From the human T2T-CHM13v2.0 reference genome, Homo sapiens: a stretch of DNA of 64,000 nucleotides. The stretch is taken from the NCBI RefSeq assembly GCF_009914755.1, contig NC_060947.1. One strand, given 5' to 3'. The translations under genes and the position numbers were made by a program. Positions 5,497 to 23,536 of the stretch are shown here, in pieces (position 1 is the first letter of the stretch; every line of letters begins with the position of its first letter). The notes beneath the pieces were generated by a model. The model did no database searches. It had not been told where the DNA came from and was given only the letters and a program-made list of their open reading frames with translations.

Positions 5497-5880
<384 letters not shown>

Positions 5881-6383
5881 ATTTTGTTGTCATTTTCTTT
5901 CTTGTGGATTTTGAGGTAACTTTTAAAAGTTTAAAATCTACAATATTCCATGGAGTTAAATAAGACGGTAAATTATGGTTTCATCTATTTAATGCATCCA
6001 TTTTTTTTAATGTTCTCTCTCTGTGTTGTCCTCTCTGACTGTTTGTTGCTGTTTTAATTTTACAGTTCAACGGCTTTTTCAATTTAAATGGTAAAAGCCA
6101 AGTTATGGTGCCATATGTGACGAATGTTAATTGCATGGATGTGGTGTTCTTGTTACTTTTTTTCTCAAAGACAATTTCCCCATCCCGCACACTTCAGTTT
6201 TGAGCAAATGTTATCCTCCATGCCACCTTCCAATATTTAACCCTGTATTTGCTGTACAGACATTTTTATAGCTCCACGTTCTGTGAAATTTAGCCAATTT
6301 GTCCTCTTGTGCTCCTTTTTATACGTTAACGATTTCCTAAGCATTTGTGCATTTTCTTACAAGTTATGTTTTATCGTTTCAAG

Positions 6384-6498
6384 AAATGCTGTTAACCTGG
6401 CAGTATTAAAACTGAATGAGCAAGGCCTCTTGGACAAATTGAAAAACAAATGGTGGTACGACAAAGGAGAGTGCGGCAGCGGGGGCGGTGACTCCAAG
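6384..6498 (+). CDS. GRIA3: GluA3 flop exon (115 nt, mutually exclusive with flip)
   Basis: tttcaag|A AAT GCT ... TCC AAG|gtcagc; encodes [38 protein letters not shown] (flop signature N..N..GGGD). Confidence 0.98.
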
Positions 6499-9400
6499 GT
6501 CAGCCTCAATGTCACCACAACCGGGTACCCTTAGTGACGAGTAATCGGCAAGACTGTTATCTTATTATTGAGGAGAGAGCACAAGACTCACACATAAAGT
6601 GGAATGACCAGGTTATTCCCCTGCCTGGCAGCTTTGGGAACCAAAAAGACTTTAGGGCACTGCCCACATTTTTGATCTAACTTGGGTCCCTTCTTCAACT
6701 CCCAGACAGAGGCTCCAACCACACCCTTTCCCTTCCTTTACCCACCAGTTTGGTTGCCTTATGAAAGCCATGATGTGGGTTTCAATGCCCTAGGCTTTCA
6801 AGAGTCCAAGGCTTTCCTGTGAGACTGTCCCCGCCTGCCTCAGTTGAGTGGTATGAAAAATCAGATCCATCTACTGAAAAATCAGGGCATAGCCTTTTGT
6901 TTTCTAGGTTGTGATGGTTGCTCACAGAGGTTGGTTGGTTGAGTAAGGGTGGCTTCTTCAATTATGTGTCTGAGTGATGAGATGTTGTTCTCTATATGTG
7001 ATAGCCCATTTAAGCAGGCCCCACTTAACTTGAAAGCCAAATAACAAGCTCGGTTTCAAGTTAAATGGGGTCTTTCTTCAATAGGCCACCCCATATAGAG
7101 ACTTTGCAGAGACATTTTGTGTATTTAAGCAAGTGCGTCGCCTAACTGTGATACTATATGTGTGTATGAATCCCTGATTTAGCTTCTCCTTAGCCATGTT
7201 CTTGGTTCAGGTAGGTCTAATTGTTATCCAGGCTGCCATCATGAGAAAACCCATCTTACTTGGCATTCCTTTGACTTCTAATGCTCTTTGGAGCTAGAAT
7301 GAATGAATAGCCATCATCCAAGCAACAAGAAATAGGGGCAAGCTCAGAAGCCGCGATACAAAGTCATGGAAACACACTTCGGGTAAGTACAGGAGAGGAC
7401 CTGAAAATAGAATCCTCCTTGGCCCAAGGGGCATGAGAATTATATTGAAGCATGTAAACTCACCTCTTGTACGACCAAGATCCCATGGGCATCTTAAGGT
7501 GAAGAACAGTGTTTCCCAACCACAGACCAACAGACAGGCAAGCCAAAACTTTTCTTCTTCAGAGACAATGGTTGCACTTCTGCTCCTCTCTTTCCCTCTC
7601 TATCCCTCAGGATCCTGATGGAAAAGTTAGTTTGCCAGTCTGCAAATATAATATGGGTTTGGAAACACTGATCCAGAACACTTTCAAAGAAATCAATTTT
7701 AAAAGAACTTTCTTCAGCAAATAATCTTACCAGGCATTGGCATGGCCTTTTATCGTAAAACCTTGATTAACCAGAACTCACCTAACCAGTACCCCAACTA
7801 ACTGAATTGCCCCTTCAGTACTTCACATTGATGAGAAAGCAGCAATAGTATTCCAAAAAAGAAGACTGCAAGGAATTGATTTTTTTAAAAAATACTTACC
7901 AAGAGATGACCTATGGTTGGGTCACATTCGGCTCTTTCTCCTCTATCTTCTCTCCATCTGGATTGACCCTCAAACGTTAGAGGCTGCTTCCCTGAGGCGA
8001 GAAAGTAGATAGAAGCATTTTAAGAAAAACTGTTATTAGCCAACAATGAACAAAATGGTTGTTCTTATTGAAAATTCCATTCATCCCTTATGGATTCCAA
8101 TTAATCAAGGTTTTACTATGTGTCAAAAAGCAGTAACTTTCTTTCCCACCAATGTGAACTGATGACACTGACAATTTAGCCAAGCTTTTGGCTCATTTCA
8201 TATTTACAATGGCCAACTTGATGGCCAAAGTATTTAGCACCTGTCTTTTTCTCATGTTATTTGCACGGAGAACCTAATTGTATCATTGAAGTGAGTTGCA
8301 GAATGAAAATTGAGCTGGATTGGATGCATTGCTCTCACGAATTCATCATTCATACTCATCATGGTTAAAAAGGAGCCATGGACTGTAACAAGATGACTCT
8401 AAAACATCCACATGATGCCAAGTGCCCAGAAGTTTTCAGATAACCAGACGTTTGATGTTATATAAACAAACAAAAAAATCTGCACATATTTGGCTGACTT
8501 TTTACTTTTCACCCAGATGTTTTGGTACATGAAGACCCCAAAACTTTAGACCAGCTATTTTTTCATTACAACCAGCAATCAAGCTTTTTTTCCCTCAGCT
8601 AGTACTGCTGCAAAGTTTTTTATCAAGTAACTTTATTGACAGCTCACGATTTCCAGATTATCTGAATTTTGATATGCAAATAGAAAAATATTTCAGTAGA
8701 TCCTAAATGTTTTCAACTTCTCTAACCATAGTGCTACCTGCCAGGCATCTTTCAAATCGCTTTCCTTGGTCATTCCTACAGCCAGTCTTTTGAAATAAGT
8801 CAACCCTTTTCTCAACTATGGATAATAGTATGATCGATCAGTGCTGCATACCCAACGATTGCTTATTCCATTTCTGGATTACCAAGAAGCTTGCCTTTGT
8901 CTTCTTCCTTCTTGCTACCTGCTGTTTTCTGAGAGTGAGCAAGAGAAGGGGCAAGAGATGAACGTGAATCTGGTTACCACTACGTATTAGTGATGCAAAA
9001 AAAAAAAATCAATGGAGAAGGAGGTAGAAATAGCAGTAAAACCTCATTAATTTGAAGCCCTCTAATTAATAATTTGTGATAAACTAGACAGGGACCAGTC
9101 TACAAGTTAACTTTATATTATCAGGCATGAGGACAAGAAAGGTTTGTTAAGCAAATGAAGAGTTTAGACTGGAATGTCAGTTGAATTTTTTCTTAAGAGA
9201 ACAAACCCTTTTCAAATGTTAGAAGCACTTATTAGATATAATCATATTCGTTACATATCTATAGGCTAAAGTAGCTCTCACGAGGATCTCCACTAAGGCA
9301 ATGTTTTATAGTCAGTTTGAATTACAAAATAGACTTAAAGTAATAAAATTGTCATTCTTTAAACCTATTTTGTAATGCAGGACTTGCTTTACTCATTCAG

Positions 9401-18418: not shown

Positions 18419-20798
18419 AAACTGACATGCCACACTTTTATGAATGTAGTTCACTTAAGGGTTGATAAATTTCTTTTGAAACTAGGATCTCTAGGAACAG
18501 TGAAATCTCCCTATTAGACCTTAGTGTGAGTACCTTTAATCAGACTGCTCTGTTCCTAAGATCTGGTGAGCAGCAGTACTGAAGAAACTGAATGACGTAA
18601 TTTGAAGAACATATTACCGGGAGGGAGGACAGGACCGGGTAAGGGCTTAGTCAGGTAGCAGTGTGAGGACACTGGGCCCTTTGCAATAAGAAAAGAGGAA
18701 GCACAGAAAGGAGGAAGAATTTGCTTTGTAGTTTCTCCTGTGGTCCTGATGAGCCCAGTCACTCATATGCCATTGGAAAGCATCTTCCCCTGTATCCTGA
18801 GCTAATTGCCACATTGCTGAGCCTGGTGCCACTGCCTGACTTAAGGCATAGCATTGCAGGAGAAGTGGTAGTGATGAGACAACAACAGGGAAGAGGAAGA
18901 GAGAGAAGAGCATCAGATGGTGGAGAATAGAGGAGAAGACAGTGCCAACACTAAACTCAGGGCCATCGATGGCCTGTCTGTCATTTGAAAGCCTGACTTA
19001 ACTTTCACTGCCAGTAATATCTTAAAGAGGCTCAAAGTTTTATTTGAGTATATTTTTGTTGCTTTGCATTCCAAGCAACTGGTTAGCATTTGAGAAGCCT
19101 GGGGTTCCGAGCATTGGTTGAAGGAACTTGTTTAAAGTATAAAAGGATCTCAATTTCCTAGTGAGATACAAAATCCAAATATTCTGGCTGCCAGGTCCTA
19201 CGCTAACCAAGAAAGTTACCTCCCTGATATTAAAGATTTATAGTTATTCAAACCGCAAGTACTCTGAAATTGCATTATTTTTAAATGATTATATCTTTCT
19301 CAGACTATCTGAAGATAAGATAGCCCCTCTGTTTTAAACAGCAAATGAGGGAAGAAAGGAAATAGGTTTTGGGACTTTGTATGATAGAGACCAGATCTCT
19401 GTGACTATAGCAAGTCTTATTAGTGACTGGATATGTTAGTGGGTCCAACTTATCCAAAATAGGCTAAGAAATTTTTACAGCATGTTCACAGTTCCATAAA
19501 TTTTTCTGCTGTCCTCTTTTTAAGTTAGTGACATTCAGACCAACATGCACTAATATTTGGCAATATTGCTCCCATGAATGTGAACAGACAGTTTATTGCC
19601 TCAGAATTATGCCACCCTCTCTACATGGTGCATTTTTTATCCCAAGTCATTAAAGATTCTTCATTTAAAATCTAATAGCTCTAGAAAGAAGACAGGATAA
19701 AGGTCATTATTCCCATTTTACAGCTGAAGAAATTTATAAGGGAGAAAATCTTTATCCTAGAACCAGTAGGGTTTCGGGCACTTGCCCAGTGGCTCTGAAT
19801 GCAGTCCTTATGTTTTAAGCAGTGAAGGACTAAGGAGCAGTGGCCTGGCCTCCTGGGGATATGTACTAGCCTCTTAGTTGAGGAAGTCTTATCTTACTAG
19901 AACAATTAAACTATTTCTCTACAGCGTTACCCAACAGTGGCAGAGTCATTTTGCTGGTTTAGGCCCTGCCATATTAATAATCCATTTTGAAACAATCTGG
20001 TTTGCCCTCTGGTGATCTAAGTTGACCACAGACATATGGCCATATCAGAAGGACAGCCAATCAGTAACTCAAAAACAATCCATAGACCAGTTTTTACATT
20101 GTTGAAAATACTCCCCTTATCCAAAACAGAGGTCCACAATATACCTTTAATACTAAGACCAGTATGTGCATAAGAATTTCGACTACATGTTTGTGGAGTA
20201 AGAACATGTACGTGGTACAGTTCTTTCTGAGATCATTTTCAGCTGGGCAACAGACTTGTGTGATAAAGGACAATTAATTAGAAGGCATGTTATTTATGTA
20301 GAATCTATTTTCAATTCTGTTCGGATTTATCCATTTGTCTCGGTCCACAATATGGAAACACTTCCCCTTCTGGGTCTGTCCTTTTCCCGACTCCTCCATA
20401 AAATTTGCTTTCTGTCTGGAAGTACAACAAGACACCCAGTTAGATCAAACTTAACACATCTCCTTCACAAAGCTACTGCAAGCTGCCGCCGACGATTGTC
20501 ACCTGAGGGGAGACCCTCCTCACCACACACAACCTATCTGAGGAGTGCCTTTTTTTCTATCCTCATTATTTAACAGTGTGTGCCGATTACTCAAAGCGAT
20601 ATGGGCAGGCCCTGGTAAATATAGCGTTGCTGTAGTGTTAACTTTTTATAAGGTAATGCTCAGGTTGCCTGCAGTGTCTAAAATTACTCTGTGGCCAGGG
20701 CCCCCTGCTTTATCGCTTTCTATAGTTTTAAAGTAGTTTGAAGCTTGAATAACATAAAATAACATAATATAATGTTATTTATGTTATTTCCCACGTGA

Positions 20799-20924
<126 letters not shown>

Positions 20925-23536
20925 TGAAGGTCTTTTTGTACTGATTAGCAATCACATTTTGACCCACTGTTTATTTTCTACCCTAAAACGGCTTTCCTTC
21001 CCAACACACACTCCCTGACACAGTGGGACCCCTTTATAACAACAGTGCTAAAGGAATAAGACAAATGCCAGCCTCAGAGGCCTGCCACATGACATCAATT
21101 GTTGACTCTATAGAACAGTTATGATGATTAGGAAACTCAATCTGGCCTACTGCATTTCCAAAGTTATAAAATAATGAGCTGTGTTATAAGGGGGTTTTAC
21201 TGTATTTCACATTTCAAAAGTTCAAAGAGAAAATATAATAACAATAACAACAACAACAACCAAAAAAAAGAAAGATTTATTTGTGACAGTACTTTCTCTT
21301 AACCTCTTACAGTGTCAGAGACTTTGTAGTTATAAATGCATTTGGTTATTAATATATTATGTCAATCCCATCTGAAAACAGTCAAACGAATAAATAACAA
21401 AGACTGGTCTCTGTAAGCAGAATGATTAGCCTCCTGCCAGCTGCTGTTGTATTGAGTTCAGCATTAATTTGGATCTCGAATCTCATTAAGTCTGTCACAC
21501 TTCTCTCTTCCAAAGGTGTCATTTGAATCTCTGTACGTAATACTTTTAAAATTTAGTCGCATGCTCCTTAAAGGTATACATCGTTAGGATAACATCACAT
21601 TGATAAGCATGAAACACTCTTCCCCGCCTCCTTCCTGCCCCCCTTCGCTCCCCTAAGAAAGTTCTTTTTTAGTTTCAATTTTTGCCTTTCCTTTTTTTGG
21701 ACTAATATCGTGGTATCAGTTAATTCATTTCATGAAATGCCACTCATTTTCCCCGTGCAATGAACCATTTTGCTACTGGTTTTCTACATCCCACATCAGG
21801 GAATTCTATAACTCTTGTGAAACTTAAATAATACATGGAACTTGAAACTGTTCTTCTTGTCACAGCTTACATGGGTTATGTCAAAGGACCTCTCCCCCCA
21901 TTAAATATCATATACATATAAAAGTCTAATCGCAGAGGAAGGGTTACCAGAAATTGGTCTATTTCCCAATGGACTGTGGAACATCCTTGCAGATAGCCTC
22001 ACCAGTCTCCTTAAAGAGATAATCCAATATTTCATATGTGACAGAAATTATTACTACTTGTCTAGCTGTCATTCATCCTAAAAGAGTGACTATTTGCAAG
22101 GTTGTTGTGAATATGAGGCATTCCCACACCCCGTTTCTGAATGCAATTCAATTTCAATTGGACCTTTTATTAAAGTAAACAAGTATAGGACTGGCTTCTA
22201 TGAAAATGGGATAAGAAGGACACGGCCATATTGTCTTTACTTTTAATTATTTAAATGATACCAAGACCAGCTGAACTAGAGTGTTAAGTGTCAGCAATGG
22301 CCATCATCTGTCACTGTGTTGTCACTTAAATAAGATGCTCAAAATTCACTGGCTTAACAATTTGGGTATTCCATTCAATTACATTCAGCAGCAAAATGGT
22401 TACATACCCTCTAAAAAGACTACAAAATGCTATTTTATTTTATTTCTTTTTCAAAGAAAGACTCCTGGCCCTTGGTGTGTCCTACCTCAAGGTAGGGCTC
22501 AAGACACCAACTTTTTTCTTTCCATTGTTCAGCAGTTCAGACTTTGCTTTTTCATACAGGCAGATAGCTTAGTCAGATTTGCACAGTTTGACCTGAAAGT
22601 CACTGACCGGCTTCCTCAATTTTTCCCCCTTGTTACAAAGAAAGCAAATAAGTGTAATTTTTAAAAATTATTCTCTACATTCCCTGGAGTAAAAGTTAAA
22701 AATGAGCTGGATTTTTAAAAAAATCATCAGCCTCCTGGAAAAGCTTTCTGATTTGTATGGAGCCAATCTAGGACCCGATGGATCCTCTGACACTCTCCTT
22801 AAACTCTCAGGAAAATGGAACGGAGCCAATTCTTTGTGCTGTGCCCTTGTTCCAGCAACACAAAGACTTGCTGCCCTGATTTTAACTAGGATGAAGATTT
22901 AGCAGCCAATCTCCAAAGGGAGCATTTTCTCAGCCACTAGGGGAAAGAGGAGAGTTAACCCTTTTTAAGCAAACCCTTGCAAAATAACTCCTCAGAGAAA
23001 AATAGCAGGAACCTCTAATATTATCATGTCGTATCTTAAAGACTAGTCGTTCACAAAGTTTGTCACAGGGAGAGCAAGGGAGAAAGGGGTGTTGCGGGGC
23101 AGAGAGGGGAAAGAGTGCTTCAAGTTCCCAAATGAAAAGAGTGTTACATTTATAGAGATTATGTCACCGCTCAACTCTGGCAAATGGTGTTTATCAAGGC
23201 TGGCAGAGGAATAAATTATGCTTGTGTTTACTCTTTTGTTCCCATGGCCAAGTGCTGTTTTATTAATTGTTGAACACCATTTTGAGGCACTAAGGAACGT
23301 AAGGAGTCAAGATGAAAGGACATTTAGGTGAGGATCAAGACTGTTAACAGAGGCACAATCTACCGTCTTGCTGGTCATTGCAAAACATTAGCCAGTTGCC
23401 AGAATTGAGTCATAACACTTACATCAATGTTTAGTTATTTTACAATTTAGAACTCCCCTGTACTGTTGTAATATATTATAATGTTCCATTGCCTTTGTTT
23501 TCCCCAAGATCTAATCACGTTGTTCATTTCTCTTAG

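What the first reader, a model, noticed from the sequence alone, without database searches (positions are those of the whole stretch)
6305..6586. Competing helix that loops out the flop exon
Seen: TCTTGTGCTC (6305-6314, 70-80 nt upstream of flop) is the exact complement of GAGCACAAGA (6577-6586, ~80 nt downstream). It extends through CTTTTTA (6315-6321) pairing with TGAGGAG (6569-6575, G-U pairs, A6576 bulged), about 17 bp enclosing flop and both its splice sites. It shares 6569-6578 with the extension of the long-range helix and crosses its core (pseudoknot topology). Inference: the two are probably alternative conformers; this one can form co-transcriptionally and hold flop silent until flip, 14 kb later, is transcribed.
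Basis: partly seen in the sequence, partly recalled or inferred. Interest (0 to 1): 0.75.

Follow-up and report, generated by a model that had tools for sequence, protein, structure and literature searches.

The report
Short helix flanking GRIA3 flop exon
A short stretch before the GRIA3 flop exon can base-pair with a stretch after it, but this looks more like chance than a proven splicing switch, whereas the neighbouring long-range pairing towards the flip exon is shared by all four AMPA receptor genes.

Summary
The complementarity is real. 6305-6314 is the exact reverse complement of 6577-6586. A 7-pair extension (3 G-U, A6576 bulged) gives 17 pairs that enclose the flop exon (6384-6498) and both its splice sites.

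Support for a function is weak:
- Chance: a helix this good appears in 13 of 1000 shuffles and at 29 of 1044 window positions for 100-nt flanks, and in 23 of 100 shuffles for a 400 x 130 nt search space.
- Folding: only about 11 of the 17 pairs are predicted to form. In naked RNA the helix vanishes once more than about 100 nt of context is added. It dominates only if the exon is barred from pairing.
- Paralogues: GRIA4, GRIA2 and GRIA1 have no analogue. Both arms lie outside paralogue-conserved intron blocks.

By contrast, the core of the long-range helix it is said to compete with (6539-6550 x 20581-20592) is the top helix at the homologous place in all four GRIA genes, with compensatory changes.

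The overlap and pseudoknot topology hold. The proposed holding function is unproven, and orthologues could not be examined. I put chance complementarity at about 0.6 and an ATE1-like GRIA3-specific selector at about 0.25.

The parts
6305..6314 (+). Upstream arm, core (TCTTGTGCTC), 79-70 nt upstream of flop
   Evidence: (I7), 5: exact reverse complement of 6577-6586.
6315..6321 (+). Upstream arm, proposed extension (CTTTTTA)
   Evidence: pairs with 6569-6575 in the isolated duplex; mean pair probability at most 0.19; only C6315-G6575 reaches about 0.6.
6384..6498 (+). GRIA3 flop exon (115 nt), enclosed by the helix
   Evidence: Annotation supplied with the finding; 90-95% identical to the flop exons of GRIA4, GRIA2 and GRIA1.
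6569..6575 (+). Downstream arm, proposed extension (TGAGGAG). It is also part of a local hairpin and of the long-range duplex.
   Evidence: 6565-6573 pairs with 6529-6537 (probability 0.93-0.98); 6569-6574 pairs with 20560-20565.
6577..6586 (+). Downstream arm, core (GAGCACAAGA), 79-88 nt downstream of flop
   Evidence: 6576-6582 also pairs with 20545-20548 and 20556-20558 in the long-range duplex.
6295..6304 (+). Intron segment next to the upstream arm, exactly complementary to flop exon 6432-6441. Together with 6310-6314 x 6418-6422 it is the predicted competitor for the upstream arm.
   Evidence: I10; probability about 0.82, duplex -19.7 to -22.3 kcal/mol; not above chance (30 of 100 shuffles).
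6520..6591 (+). Flop-side strand of the long-range duplex (the docking region). The core is 6539-6550.
   Evidence: -61.3 kcal/mol with 20538-20617. Its best partner in the 64-kb window lies upstream of flip.
20538..20617 (+). Flip-side strand of the long-range duplex, 263-184 nt upstream of flip. The core is 20581-20592.
   Evidence: the block is conserved in GRIA4, GRIA2 and GRIA1 with compensatory changes.
20801..20915 (+). GRIA3 flip exon
   Evidence: Annotation supplied with the finding.

Best explanation
The 10-bp perfect inverted repeat around flop is most likely fortuitous. A pyrimidine-rich intron tract upstream of flop happens to complement the purine-rich distal tail of a real, ancient docking region downstream of flop. 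It may form transiently as a helix of about 11 bp, but it is not a dedicated, selected switch.

The selected structure in this neighbourhood is the pairing of the flop-downstream region (core 6539-6550) with the flip-upstream region (core 20581-20592). All four AMPA receptor genes share that pairing.

Shown: the complementarity, its borderline statistics, its context-dependent predicted stability, its absence from the paralogues, and paralogue covariation for the long-range core.

Inferred: that the local helix has no regulatory role.
For: Statistics:
- The helix score is reached in 13 of 1000 shuffles and at 29 of 1044 window positions with 100-nt flanks.
- It is reached in 23 of 100 shuffles when 400 nt upstream x 130 nt downstream are allowed.
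- Exact inverted repeats of 10 nt or more average 1.8 per 1078-nt tile over 117 tiles.

Folding:
- Core pair probability is 0.93-0.98 only in the tight windows 6295-6596 and 6250-6650.
- It is 0.009 or less in all 15 wider window tests (5, 10).
- Forcing the core in 5823-6700 costs +11.4 kcal/mol of ensemble free energy.
- The extension is not predicted to form.

Paralogues:
- With 100-nt flanks, the best flop-enclosing helices in GRIA4, GRIA2 and GRIA1 are matched by 83, 34 and 208 of 300 shuffles.
- With wider flanks they are matched by 76, 23 and 26 of 100 shuffles, and they sit at non-homologous places.
- Both arms lie outside the paralogue-conserved blocks, which cover the last ~45 nt upstream and the first ~52 nt downstream.

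Contrast: the long-range core is the top-scoring helix at the homologous place in 4 of 4 paralogues and carries compensatory changes.

Literature: in a genome-wide catalogue of conserved complementary regions of this strength, the authors estimate false discovery at 10% to over 50% (PMC8052449, passages read).
Against: Among the 4 internal exons of the window, only flop has such a flanking helix (score 32 against 15-17). For narrow flanks the nominal p is 0.01-0.03.

If the exon is barred from pairing, as it might be when covered by proteins, the core is the dominant intron-intron pairing in all 5 contexts tried (probability 0.89-0.98).

The downstream arm sits on a docking region that does have a verified second partner. 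The layout matches the experimentally proven ATE1 R1/R3/R4 module (PMC7797038, abstract and section 14 read).

Flop is transcribed 14.3 kb before flip, yet flip predominated in control human hippocampus (flop about 10%; PMC8749388, passages read). Some mechanism must hold flop back.

Absence from the paralogues does not exclude a GRIA3-specific element, and orthologues were not examined.
Confidence: 0.6

Rival explanations
1. 6305-6315 is a GRIA3-specific selector that pairs with the tail of the docking region (6575-6586) as soon as that tail is transcribed. This loops out flop and delays its definition. The flip-upstream selector (20538-20566) later competes for the same segment.
For: The complementarity and topology are confirmed. 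The shared segment 6566-6591 pairs at -22.4 kcal/mol with the local arm and at -18.3 with the flip-upstream partner, so real competition is energetically possible. The core probability is 0.89-0.98 when the exon cannot pair. Only flop, of the 4 internal exons, has such a helix. The architecture is the same as ATE1 R1/R3/R4 (PMC7797038). The two candidate selectors share a GTGC-plus-T-run motif.
Against: No analogue exists in GRIA4, GRIA2 or GRIA1, although the docking-to-flip helix is conserved there. There is no detectable homology between the flop-upstream and flip-upstream introns beyond a T-run; the best local alignment is matched by 123 of 200 shuffles. The statistics are borderline. The helix is absent from the naked-RNA ensemble. 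Only about 11 bp close a loop of about 260 nt. From recall, not from any call here: classical experiments by Solnick and by Eperon in the 1980s suggested that short stems with long loops act weakly in vivo.
Confidence: 0.25
2. A cooperative rather than competing arrangement. The local helix and the long-range core (6520-6560 x 20570-20617) form together as a pseudoknot. Flop is looped out, and the flip 3' splice site is brought within a few hundred nucleotides of the exon 13 donor. Together this favours flip.
For: The long-range core (-44.3 kcal/mol) does not use any base of the local helix. For the shared segment, the local pairing is slightly more stable than the long-range one (-22.4 against -18.3).
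Against: No tool here evaluates pseudoknots or their sterics. All the conservation and statistical objections to the local helix apply equally. Flop-to-flip junctions make up 11% of GRIA3 junction reads in human RNA-seq (PMC8257547, passages read). This shows that flop is often not looped out when the flip acceptor is used.
Confidence: 0.08
3. The relevant partner of the upstream segment is the flop exon itself (6295-6304 x 6432-6441 plus 6310-6314 x 6418-6422). This intron-exon duplex would mask exonic enhancers or act as a minor ADAR substrate.
For: There is an exact 10-bp match (I10). It is predicted at probability about 0.82 in every naked-RNA window tried. It has a shorter span and is transcribed earlier.
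Against: It is not above chance: 30 of 100 shuffles give an intron-exon helix at least as good in GRIA3. There is no analogue in the paralogues (48, 39 and 14 of 100), although the exon sequence is nearly identical. It is A/U-rich and weak (-11.8 kcal/mol for the 10 bp).
Confidence: 0.05

Closest known systems
ATE1 exon 7a/7b competing structures R1-R3 and R3-R4 (Kalinina et al. 2020, PMC7797038; abstract and section 14 read)
   Same: Both have two mutually exclusive exons. One element in the intron between them is complementary to an element upstream of the first exon and to another upstream of the second. Pairing with the first loops out the first exon. Both sit in a pseudoknot-like layout with very long-range pairing, and a dependence on co-transcriptional folding is proposed.
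   Different: [quoted passage not shown] Here the flop-upstream arm has no paralogue counterpart and no demonstrated conservation. It pairs only with the distal tail of the docking region. The reported ATE1 energies are -33 to -36 kcal/mol (PMC8052449, Table 1 passage), against about -21 here.
Docking-site/selector-sequence control of mutually exclusive exons, and its origin by tandem duplication (Ivanov and Pervouchine 2018, PMC6071210; abstract read)
   Same: One docking segment (6566-6591) is complementary to two alternative partners, each upstream of one of two tandemly duplicated 115-nt exons.
   Different: The model predicts that the selectors are homologous copies. No homology was detectable between the flop-upstream and flip-upstream introns. 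That paper's main text does not mention GRIA or flip.
Pairs of conserved complementary regions that loop out exons (Kalmykova et al. 2021, PMC8052449; passages read)
   Same: The length (at least 10 nt), energy (at most -15 kcal/mol) and distance criteria are met. In that catalogue, exons looped out by such pairs show lower inclusion.
   Different: Catalogue entries must lie in conserved intronic regions, which is untested here. No GRIA gene name was found in the 3 supplementary files held. The catalogue's 10-kb distance limit would exclude the 14-kb GRIA3 long-range pair.

Membership tests
Pair of conserved complementary regions (criteria of PMC8052449) | At least 10 nt of near-perfect complementarity with hybridisation energy of -15 kcal/mol or lower | tested here: met
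   10 exact bp; -20.9 kcal/mol for 6305-6321 x 6569-6586.
Pair of conserved complementary regions (criteria of PMC8052449) | Both arms in the same gene, no more than 10 kb apart | tested here: met
   Both arms are intronic in GRIA3, with 262 nt between the core arms.
Pair of conserved complementary regions (criteria of PMC8052449) | Both arms lie in evolutionarily conserved intronic regions | not testable with these tools
   No vertebrate genomes are held. Exact-pattern scans of two collections gave one chance bacterial match and nothing else. At the paralogue level the arms lie outside the conserved blocks.
Docking/selector competing structures of mutually exclusive exons (ATE1 type) | One docking segment complementary to two selectors, one upstream of each exon | tested here: met
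   6566-6591 pairs with 6304-6322 (-22.4 kcal/mol) and with 20538-20566 (-18.3). This holds at the level of sequence complementarity only.
Docking/selector competing structures of mutually exclusive exons (ATE1 type) | Selectors similar to each other (duplicated copies) | tested here: inconclusive
   A shared GTGC-plus-T-run motif of about 13 nt is visible. The best local alignment of the two upstream introns is a 10-nt T-run, matched by 123 of 200 shuffles.
Docking/selector competing structures of mutually exclusive exons (ATE1 type) | All elements conserved, with pairing kept through compensatory changes | tested here: not met
   This feature is met for the docking core and the flip-upstream selector in 4 of 4 paralogues. 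It is not met for the flop-upstream selector, which has no analogue in 3 of 3 other paralogues. Orthologues were not tested.
Docking/selector competing structures of mutually exclusive exons (ATE1 type) | Disruption and compensatory restoration change exon choice | not testable with these tools
   This is a bench experiment.

The most novel reading that the evidence does not exclude
GRIA3 has added a lineage-specific third element to an ancient helix that joins the flop-downstream and flip-upstream introns in all four AMPA receptor genes. That element is a flop-upstream selector at 6305-6315. It captures the tail of the docking region within seconds of flop being transcribed and loops flop out. 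It thereby compensates for the 14.3-kb head start that flop has over flip in this gene alone. This would be an ATE1-like three-element switch, and the first RNA-structure mechanism for flip/flop choice.
Probability: 0.25. Interest if true: 0.7.

Novelty: new member of a known kind. Interest (0 to 1): 0.35.

Why it matters
Flip/flop choice sets AMPA receptor desensitisation kinetics, and a 2021 survey states that its regulatory mechanism remains unknown (PMC8257547, passage read). In GRIA3, flop is transcribed 14.3 kb before flip, yet flip predominated in control human hippocampus (PMC8749388). Something must therefore hold flop back.

A flop-looping helix would be a concrete, oligonucleotide-addressable answer in an X-linked intellectual-disability gene. 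My evidence suggests this particular helix is probably not that answer.

The same work shows that the structure it was said to compete with is conserved in all four AMPA receptor genes with compensatory changes. That structure is the more promising entry point. I found no RNA-structure model of flip/flop choice in the seven full-text searches aimed at one.

Tried and rejected
1. Orthologue retrieval. An exact 23-nt pattern spanning the flop donor was scanned in genome contigs and viral contigs. The single hit (L009) is a GC-rich bacterial coding repeat that shares only the 23-mer. No orthologue was obtained.

2. Boundaries of ultraconserved element uc.478, to see whether it covers the arms.

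4. RNAduplex on whole 100-nt flanks as a chance statistic. It is too permissive: 127 of 2000 shuffles and 648 of 1722 window positions were as good, because it strings together large internal loops. I replaced it with a contiguous-helix score.

5. Total duplex energy as evidence for the long-range pairing in the paralogues. It discriminates poorly: z is -1.7 to -2.4 for GRIA1, GRIA2 and GRIA4, and the GC-rich GRIA1 flip-side segment pairs about as well with non-cognate flop sides. I relied instead on the position of the top contiguous helix and on compensatory changes.

6. Repeat-element origin of the long-range arms. Both segments are single-copy in the genome at the sensitivity of this search. 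Very old repeats would be missed.

7. Rfam. No family covers the flop flanks.

8. PCCR catalogue supplements. GRIA1-4 names occur 0 times in the 3 files held. The full catalogue may not be among them.
Full report
**Observation.** The window holds the 3' part of GRIA3: flop at 6384-6498 and flip at 20801-20915, separated by a 14,302-nt intron. I read 5500-6800 and 20600-21200 directly.
- 6305-6314 (TCTTGTGCTC) is the exact reverse complement of 6577-6586 (GAGCACAAGA). The repeat finder lists it as pair I7, with 262 nt between the arms, and a script confirms it.
- With A6576 bulged, 6315-6321 pairs with 6569-6575 through 4 Watson-Crick and 3 G-U pairs.
- The isolated duplex is worth -20.9 kcal/mol, or -22.7 with three outer pairs.
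- The arms lie 79-63 nt upstream and 71-88 nt downstream of flop, so the loop contains the exon and both its splice sites.

The sequence observation is correct in every detail.

**Is it more than chance?** I used a contiguous-helix score (G-C 3, A-U 2, G-U 1, with penalties for mismatches and bulges) on the 100 nt on each side of the exon.
- The observed score of 32 was reached in 13 of 1000 dinucleotide shuffles and at 29 of 1044 positions of identical geometry across the window. An exact run of 10 or more was seen in 7 of 1000 shuffles and at 17 of 1044 positions.
- Of the 4 internal exons in the window, only flop has such a helix (32 against 15, 16 and 17).
- When the search space is widened to 400 nt upstream x 130 nt downstream, closer to what an unconstrained reader scans, 23 of 100 shuffles do as well.
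- Exact inverted repeats of 10 nt or more are ordinary here. There are three in 5823-6900 (shuffle mean 0.63; 29 of 1000 shuffles reach 3 or more). The mean is 1.8 per 1078-nt tile over 117 tiles.

The signal is nominal (p about 0.01-0.03) for a pre-specified narrow geometry and disappears under a broader one.

**Predicted folding.**
- In tight windows (6295-6596, 6250-6650) the core has mean pair probability 0.98 and 0.93. In each of the 5 wider windows and the 10 windows it is 0.009 or less.
- The predicted reason is that the upstream arm is taken by the flop exon. 6295-6304 pairs exactly with 6432-6441 (pair I10), and 6310-6314 pairs with 6418-6422 (probability about 0.82). These partners are closer and are transcribed earlier.
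- Forcing the proposed core in 5823-6700 costs +11.4 kcal/mol of ensemble free energy.
- As a steelman I barred the exon from pairing. The core then dominates in all 5 contexts tried (0.89-0.98).
- In both regimes the G-U extension is not formed (mean 0.19 or less). 6565-6573 closes a local hairpin with 6529-6537 at probability 0.93-0.98, although that hairpin alone folds no better than shuffles (z -0.56).

The realistic helix is therefore about 11 bp, and whether it forms depends on whether the exon is free to pair. The competitor intron-exon pairing is itself not above chance (30 of 100 shuffles).

**The long-range partner is real and ancient.**
- Scanning 6250-6800 against the whole window, the only two exact complementary 12-mers both map just upstream of flip and in antiparallel order: 6539-6550 x 20581-20592 and 6671-6682 x 20438-20449.
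- The extended duplexes are 6520-6591 x 20538-20617 (-61.3 kcal/mol, 51 pairs listed) and 6670-6714 x 20406-20450 (-44.3).
- For both query strands, the best of 1583 target windows across the 64 kb lies in that same region.
- Both segments are single-copy in the genome at this search's sensitivity.

I fetched the paralogous flop and flip loci from the same genome (assignment to GRIA4, GRIA2 and GRIA1 is by chromosome and exon sequence, from my own knowledge). In 4 of 4 paralogues the top-scoring contiguous helix between flop +1..+130 and the sequence upstream of flip is the same homologous element. The search took the 400 nt upstream of flip, or 280 nt in GRIA2 because the intron is short. The helix starts at +41 to +53 with GUAA and ends 166-248 nt upstream of flip with UUAC. 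Shuffles as good: 13, 16, 2 and 0 of 100.

The cores are:

| Gene | Flop side | Flip side |
|---|---|---|
| GRIA1 | GGUAACCAGCAAC | GUUGCUGGUUACU |
| GRIA2 | AGUAAGCAGCAG | CUGCUGGUUACU |
| GRIA3 | AGUAAUCGGCA | UGCCGAUUACU |
| GRIA4 | AGUAAUAGGUGCA | UGUGCCUGUUACC |

After the GUAA anchor, the pairs change on both sides (C-G / U-A, C-G / A-U, A-U / G-C). GRIA4 also carries a two-base insertion on both strands that keeps the pairing.

Total duplex energies are a poor statistic here (z -1.7 to -2.4 in GRIA1, GRIA2 and GRIA4; -6.0 in GRIA3; non-cognate controls are sometimes as good). The evidence therefore rests on position and covariation. With only four sequences this is suggestive, not a formal covariation test.

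**The local helix fails the same test.**
- With 100-nt flanks, the best flop-enclosing helices in GRIA4, GRIA2 and GRIA1 are matched by 83, 34 and 208 of 300 shuffles.
- With 400 x 130 nt they are matched by 76, 23 and 26 of 100, and they sit at unrelated positions.
- Alignments of the four paralogues show conservation only in the last ~45 nt upstream of flop and, between GRIA3 and GRIA4, in the first ~52 nt downstream. Both arms lie outside these blocks.
- In GRIA4 the long-range helix ends at GGGAG:CUCCC. In my reading of the alignments this corresponds to GRIA3 6569-6574:20560-20565. The core arm 6577-6586 then has no GRIA4 counterpart.

**Relation between the two helices.**
- The shared segment 6566-6591 pairs at -22.4 kcal/mol with the local arm and at -18.3 with 20538-20566.
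- The rest of the long-range duplex (6520-6560 x 20570-20617, -44.3) uses no base of the local helix.
- The competition therefore concerns only the distal third, and coexistence as a pseudoknot cannot be excluded.
- The two candidate selectors share a GTGC-plus-T-run motif. However, the two upstream introns show no homology beyond a T-run (123 of 200 shuffles as good).

**Literature.** I ran nine full-text searches. Seven of them looked for an RNA-structure account of flip/flop choice or of GRIA splicing. One search looked for uc.478, and for a PTBP link to flip/flop. None found an RNA-structure model of flip/flop choice.
- PMC8257547 (passages read) states that the regulatory mechanisms are unknown. 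It reports flop-to-flip junctions at 11% for GRIA3; these cause a frameshift.
- PMC13078869 (passages read) confirms that the two exons can be included together in Gria2 and Gria4 and then trigger mRNA decay.
- PMC8749388 (passages read) reports that flip predominates in human hippocampus (flop about 10% in controls). It also reports that the flop and flip exons overlap ultraconserved elements uc.478 and uc.479. Their boundaries were not obtainable (supplements closed).
- PMC7797038 (abstract and section 14 read) describes ATE1. Elements R1 and R4, immediately upstream of the two exons, compete for R3 between them. This was validated by compensatory mutagenesis and is the architecture proposed here.
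- PMC8052449 (passages read) shows that helices of this strength are very common (about 75 per gene) and estimates false discovery at 10% to over 50%. Its 10-kb limit would exclude the GRIA3 long-range pair. The 3 supplementary files held do not mention GRIA1-4.
- Protein-based regulation of GluR-B flip/flop by SRSF10, and by MeCP2 with LEDGF, is reported in PMC8522700 and PMC4924826 (passages read).

**Verdict.** The complementarity exists and its geometry fits a known, proven kind of switch. Every indirect test available here leaves it at or near chance: statistics, ensemble folding, paralogue comparison and the position of conserved blocks. Meanwhile its supposed rival passes the paralogue test clearly. 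My odds:
- about 0.6 for fortuitous complementarity riding on the purine-rich tail of a real docking region;
- about 0.25 for a functional GRIA3-specific selector;
- the rest for cooperative or intron-exon variants.

The decisive evidence is orthologue conservation and compensatory mutagenesis.

Noticed in passing
window 6539-6550 with 20581-20592 (extended 6520-6591 with 20538-20617); L002/L008, L003 and L004 at homologous places: In all four human AMPA receptor genes, a helix joins the intron about 45 nt downstream of flop to the intron 170-250 nt upstream of flip. It carries compensatory changes and, in GRIA4, a paired 2-bp insertion. The loop it closes ranges from under 200 nt in GRIA2 and about 450 nt in GRIA1 to about 14 kb in GRIA3. 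I found no description of it in the seven literature searches aimed at such structures. It deserves its own follow-up.
   Followed up: yes
window 6670-6714 with 20406-20450: A second long-range complementarity (-44.3 kcal/mol, with an exact 12-mer at 6671-6682 / 20438-20449). It is collinear with the first and is the best of 1583 target windows in the 64 kb. It was not checked in the paralogues.
   Followed up: partly
window 20747-20789: A near-perfect A/U-rich hairpin directly upstream of the flip 3' splice site (-15.5 kcal/mol, z -5.3, 0 of 200 shuffles as good). The roughly 60-nt block is almost identical in GRIA4, GRIA2 and GRIA1. It covers the region where the flip branch point and pyrimidine tract would be expected.
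   Followed up: partly
window 6480-6523: A hairpin that places the flop 5' splice site in its loop: GGUGAC 6487-6492 pairs with GUCACC 6511-6516 (-19.7 kcal/mol, z -2.9, 2 of 200 shuffles as good). The intronic strand is conserved in GRIA4 but not in GRIA2 or GRIA1.
   Followed up: partly
window 5814-5881: The hairpin at the exon 13 donor is, from my own knowledge, the R/G editing-site hairpin (-39.2 kcal/mol, z -10). It matches Rfam family mir-2985 above its gathering score (84.8 bits against 68).
   Followed up: no
window 6075-6085 with 6436-6446, and 6295-6304 with 6432-6441: Two exact 10-11-nt intron segments are complementary to the same stretch of the flop exon (pairs I5 and I10). Intron-exon complementarity is not above chance in any of the four paralogues.
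   Followed up: yes
L009 (genome contigs record), positions 2001-2023: An exact 23-nt match to the flop donor region inside a GC-rich bacterial coding repeat. There is no further similarity, so it is a chance match and not host contamination.
   Followed up: yes
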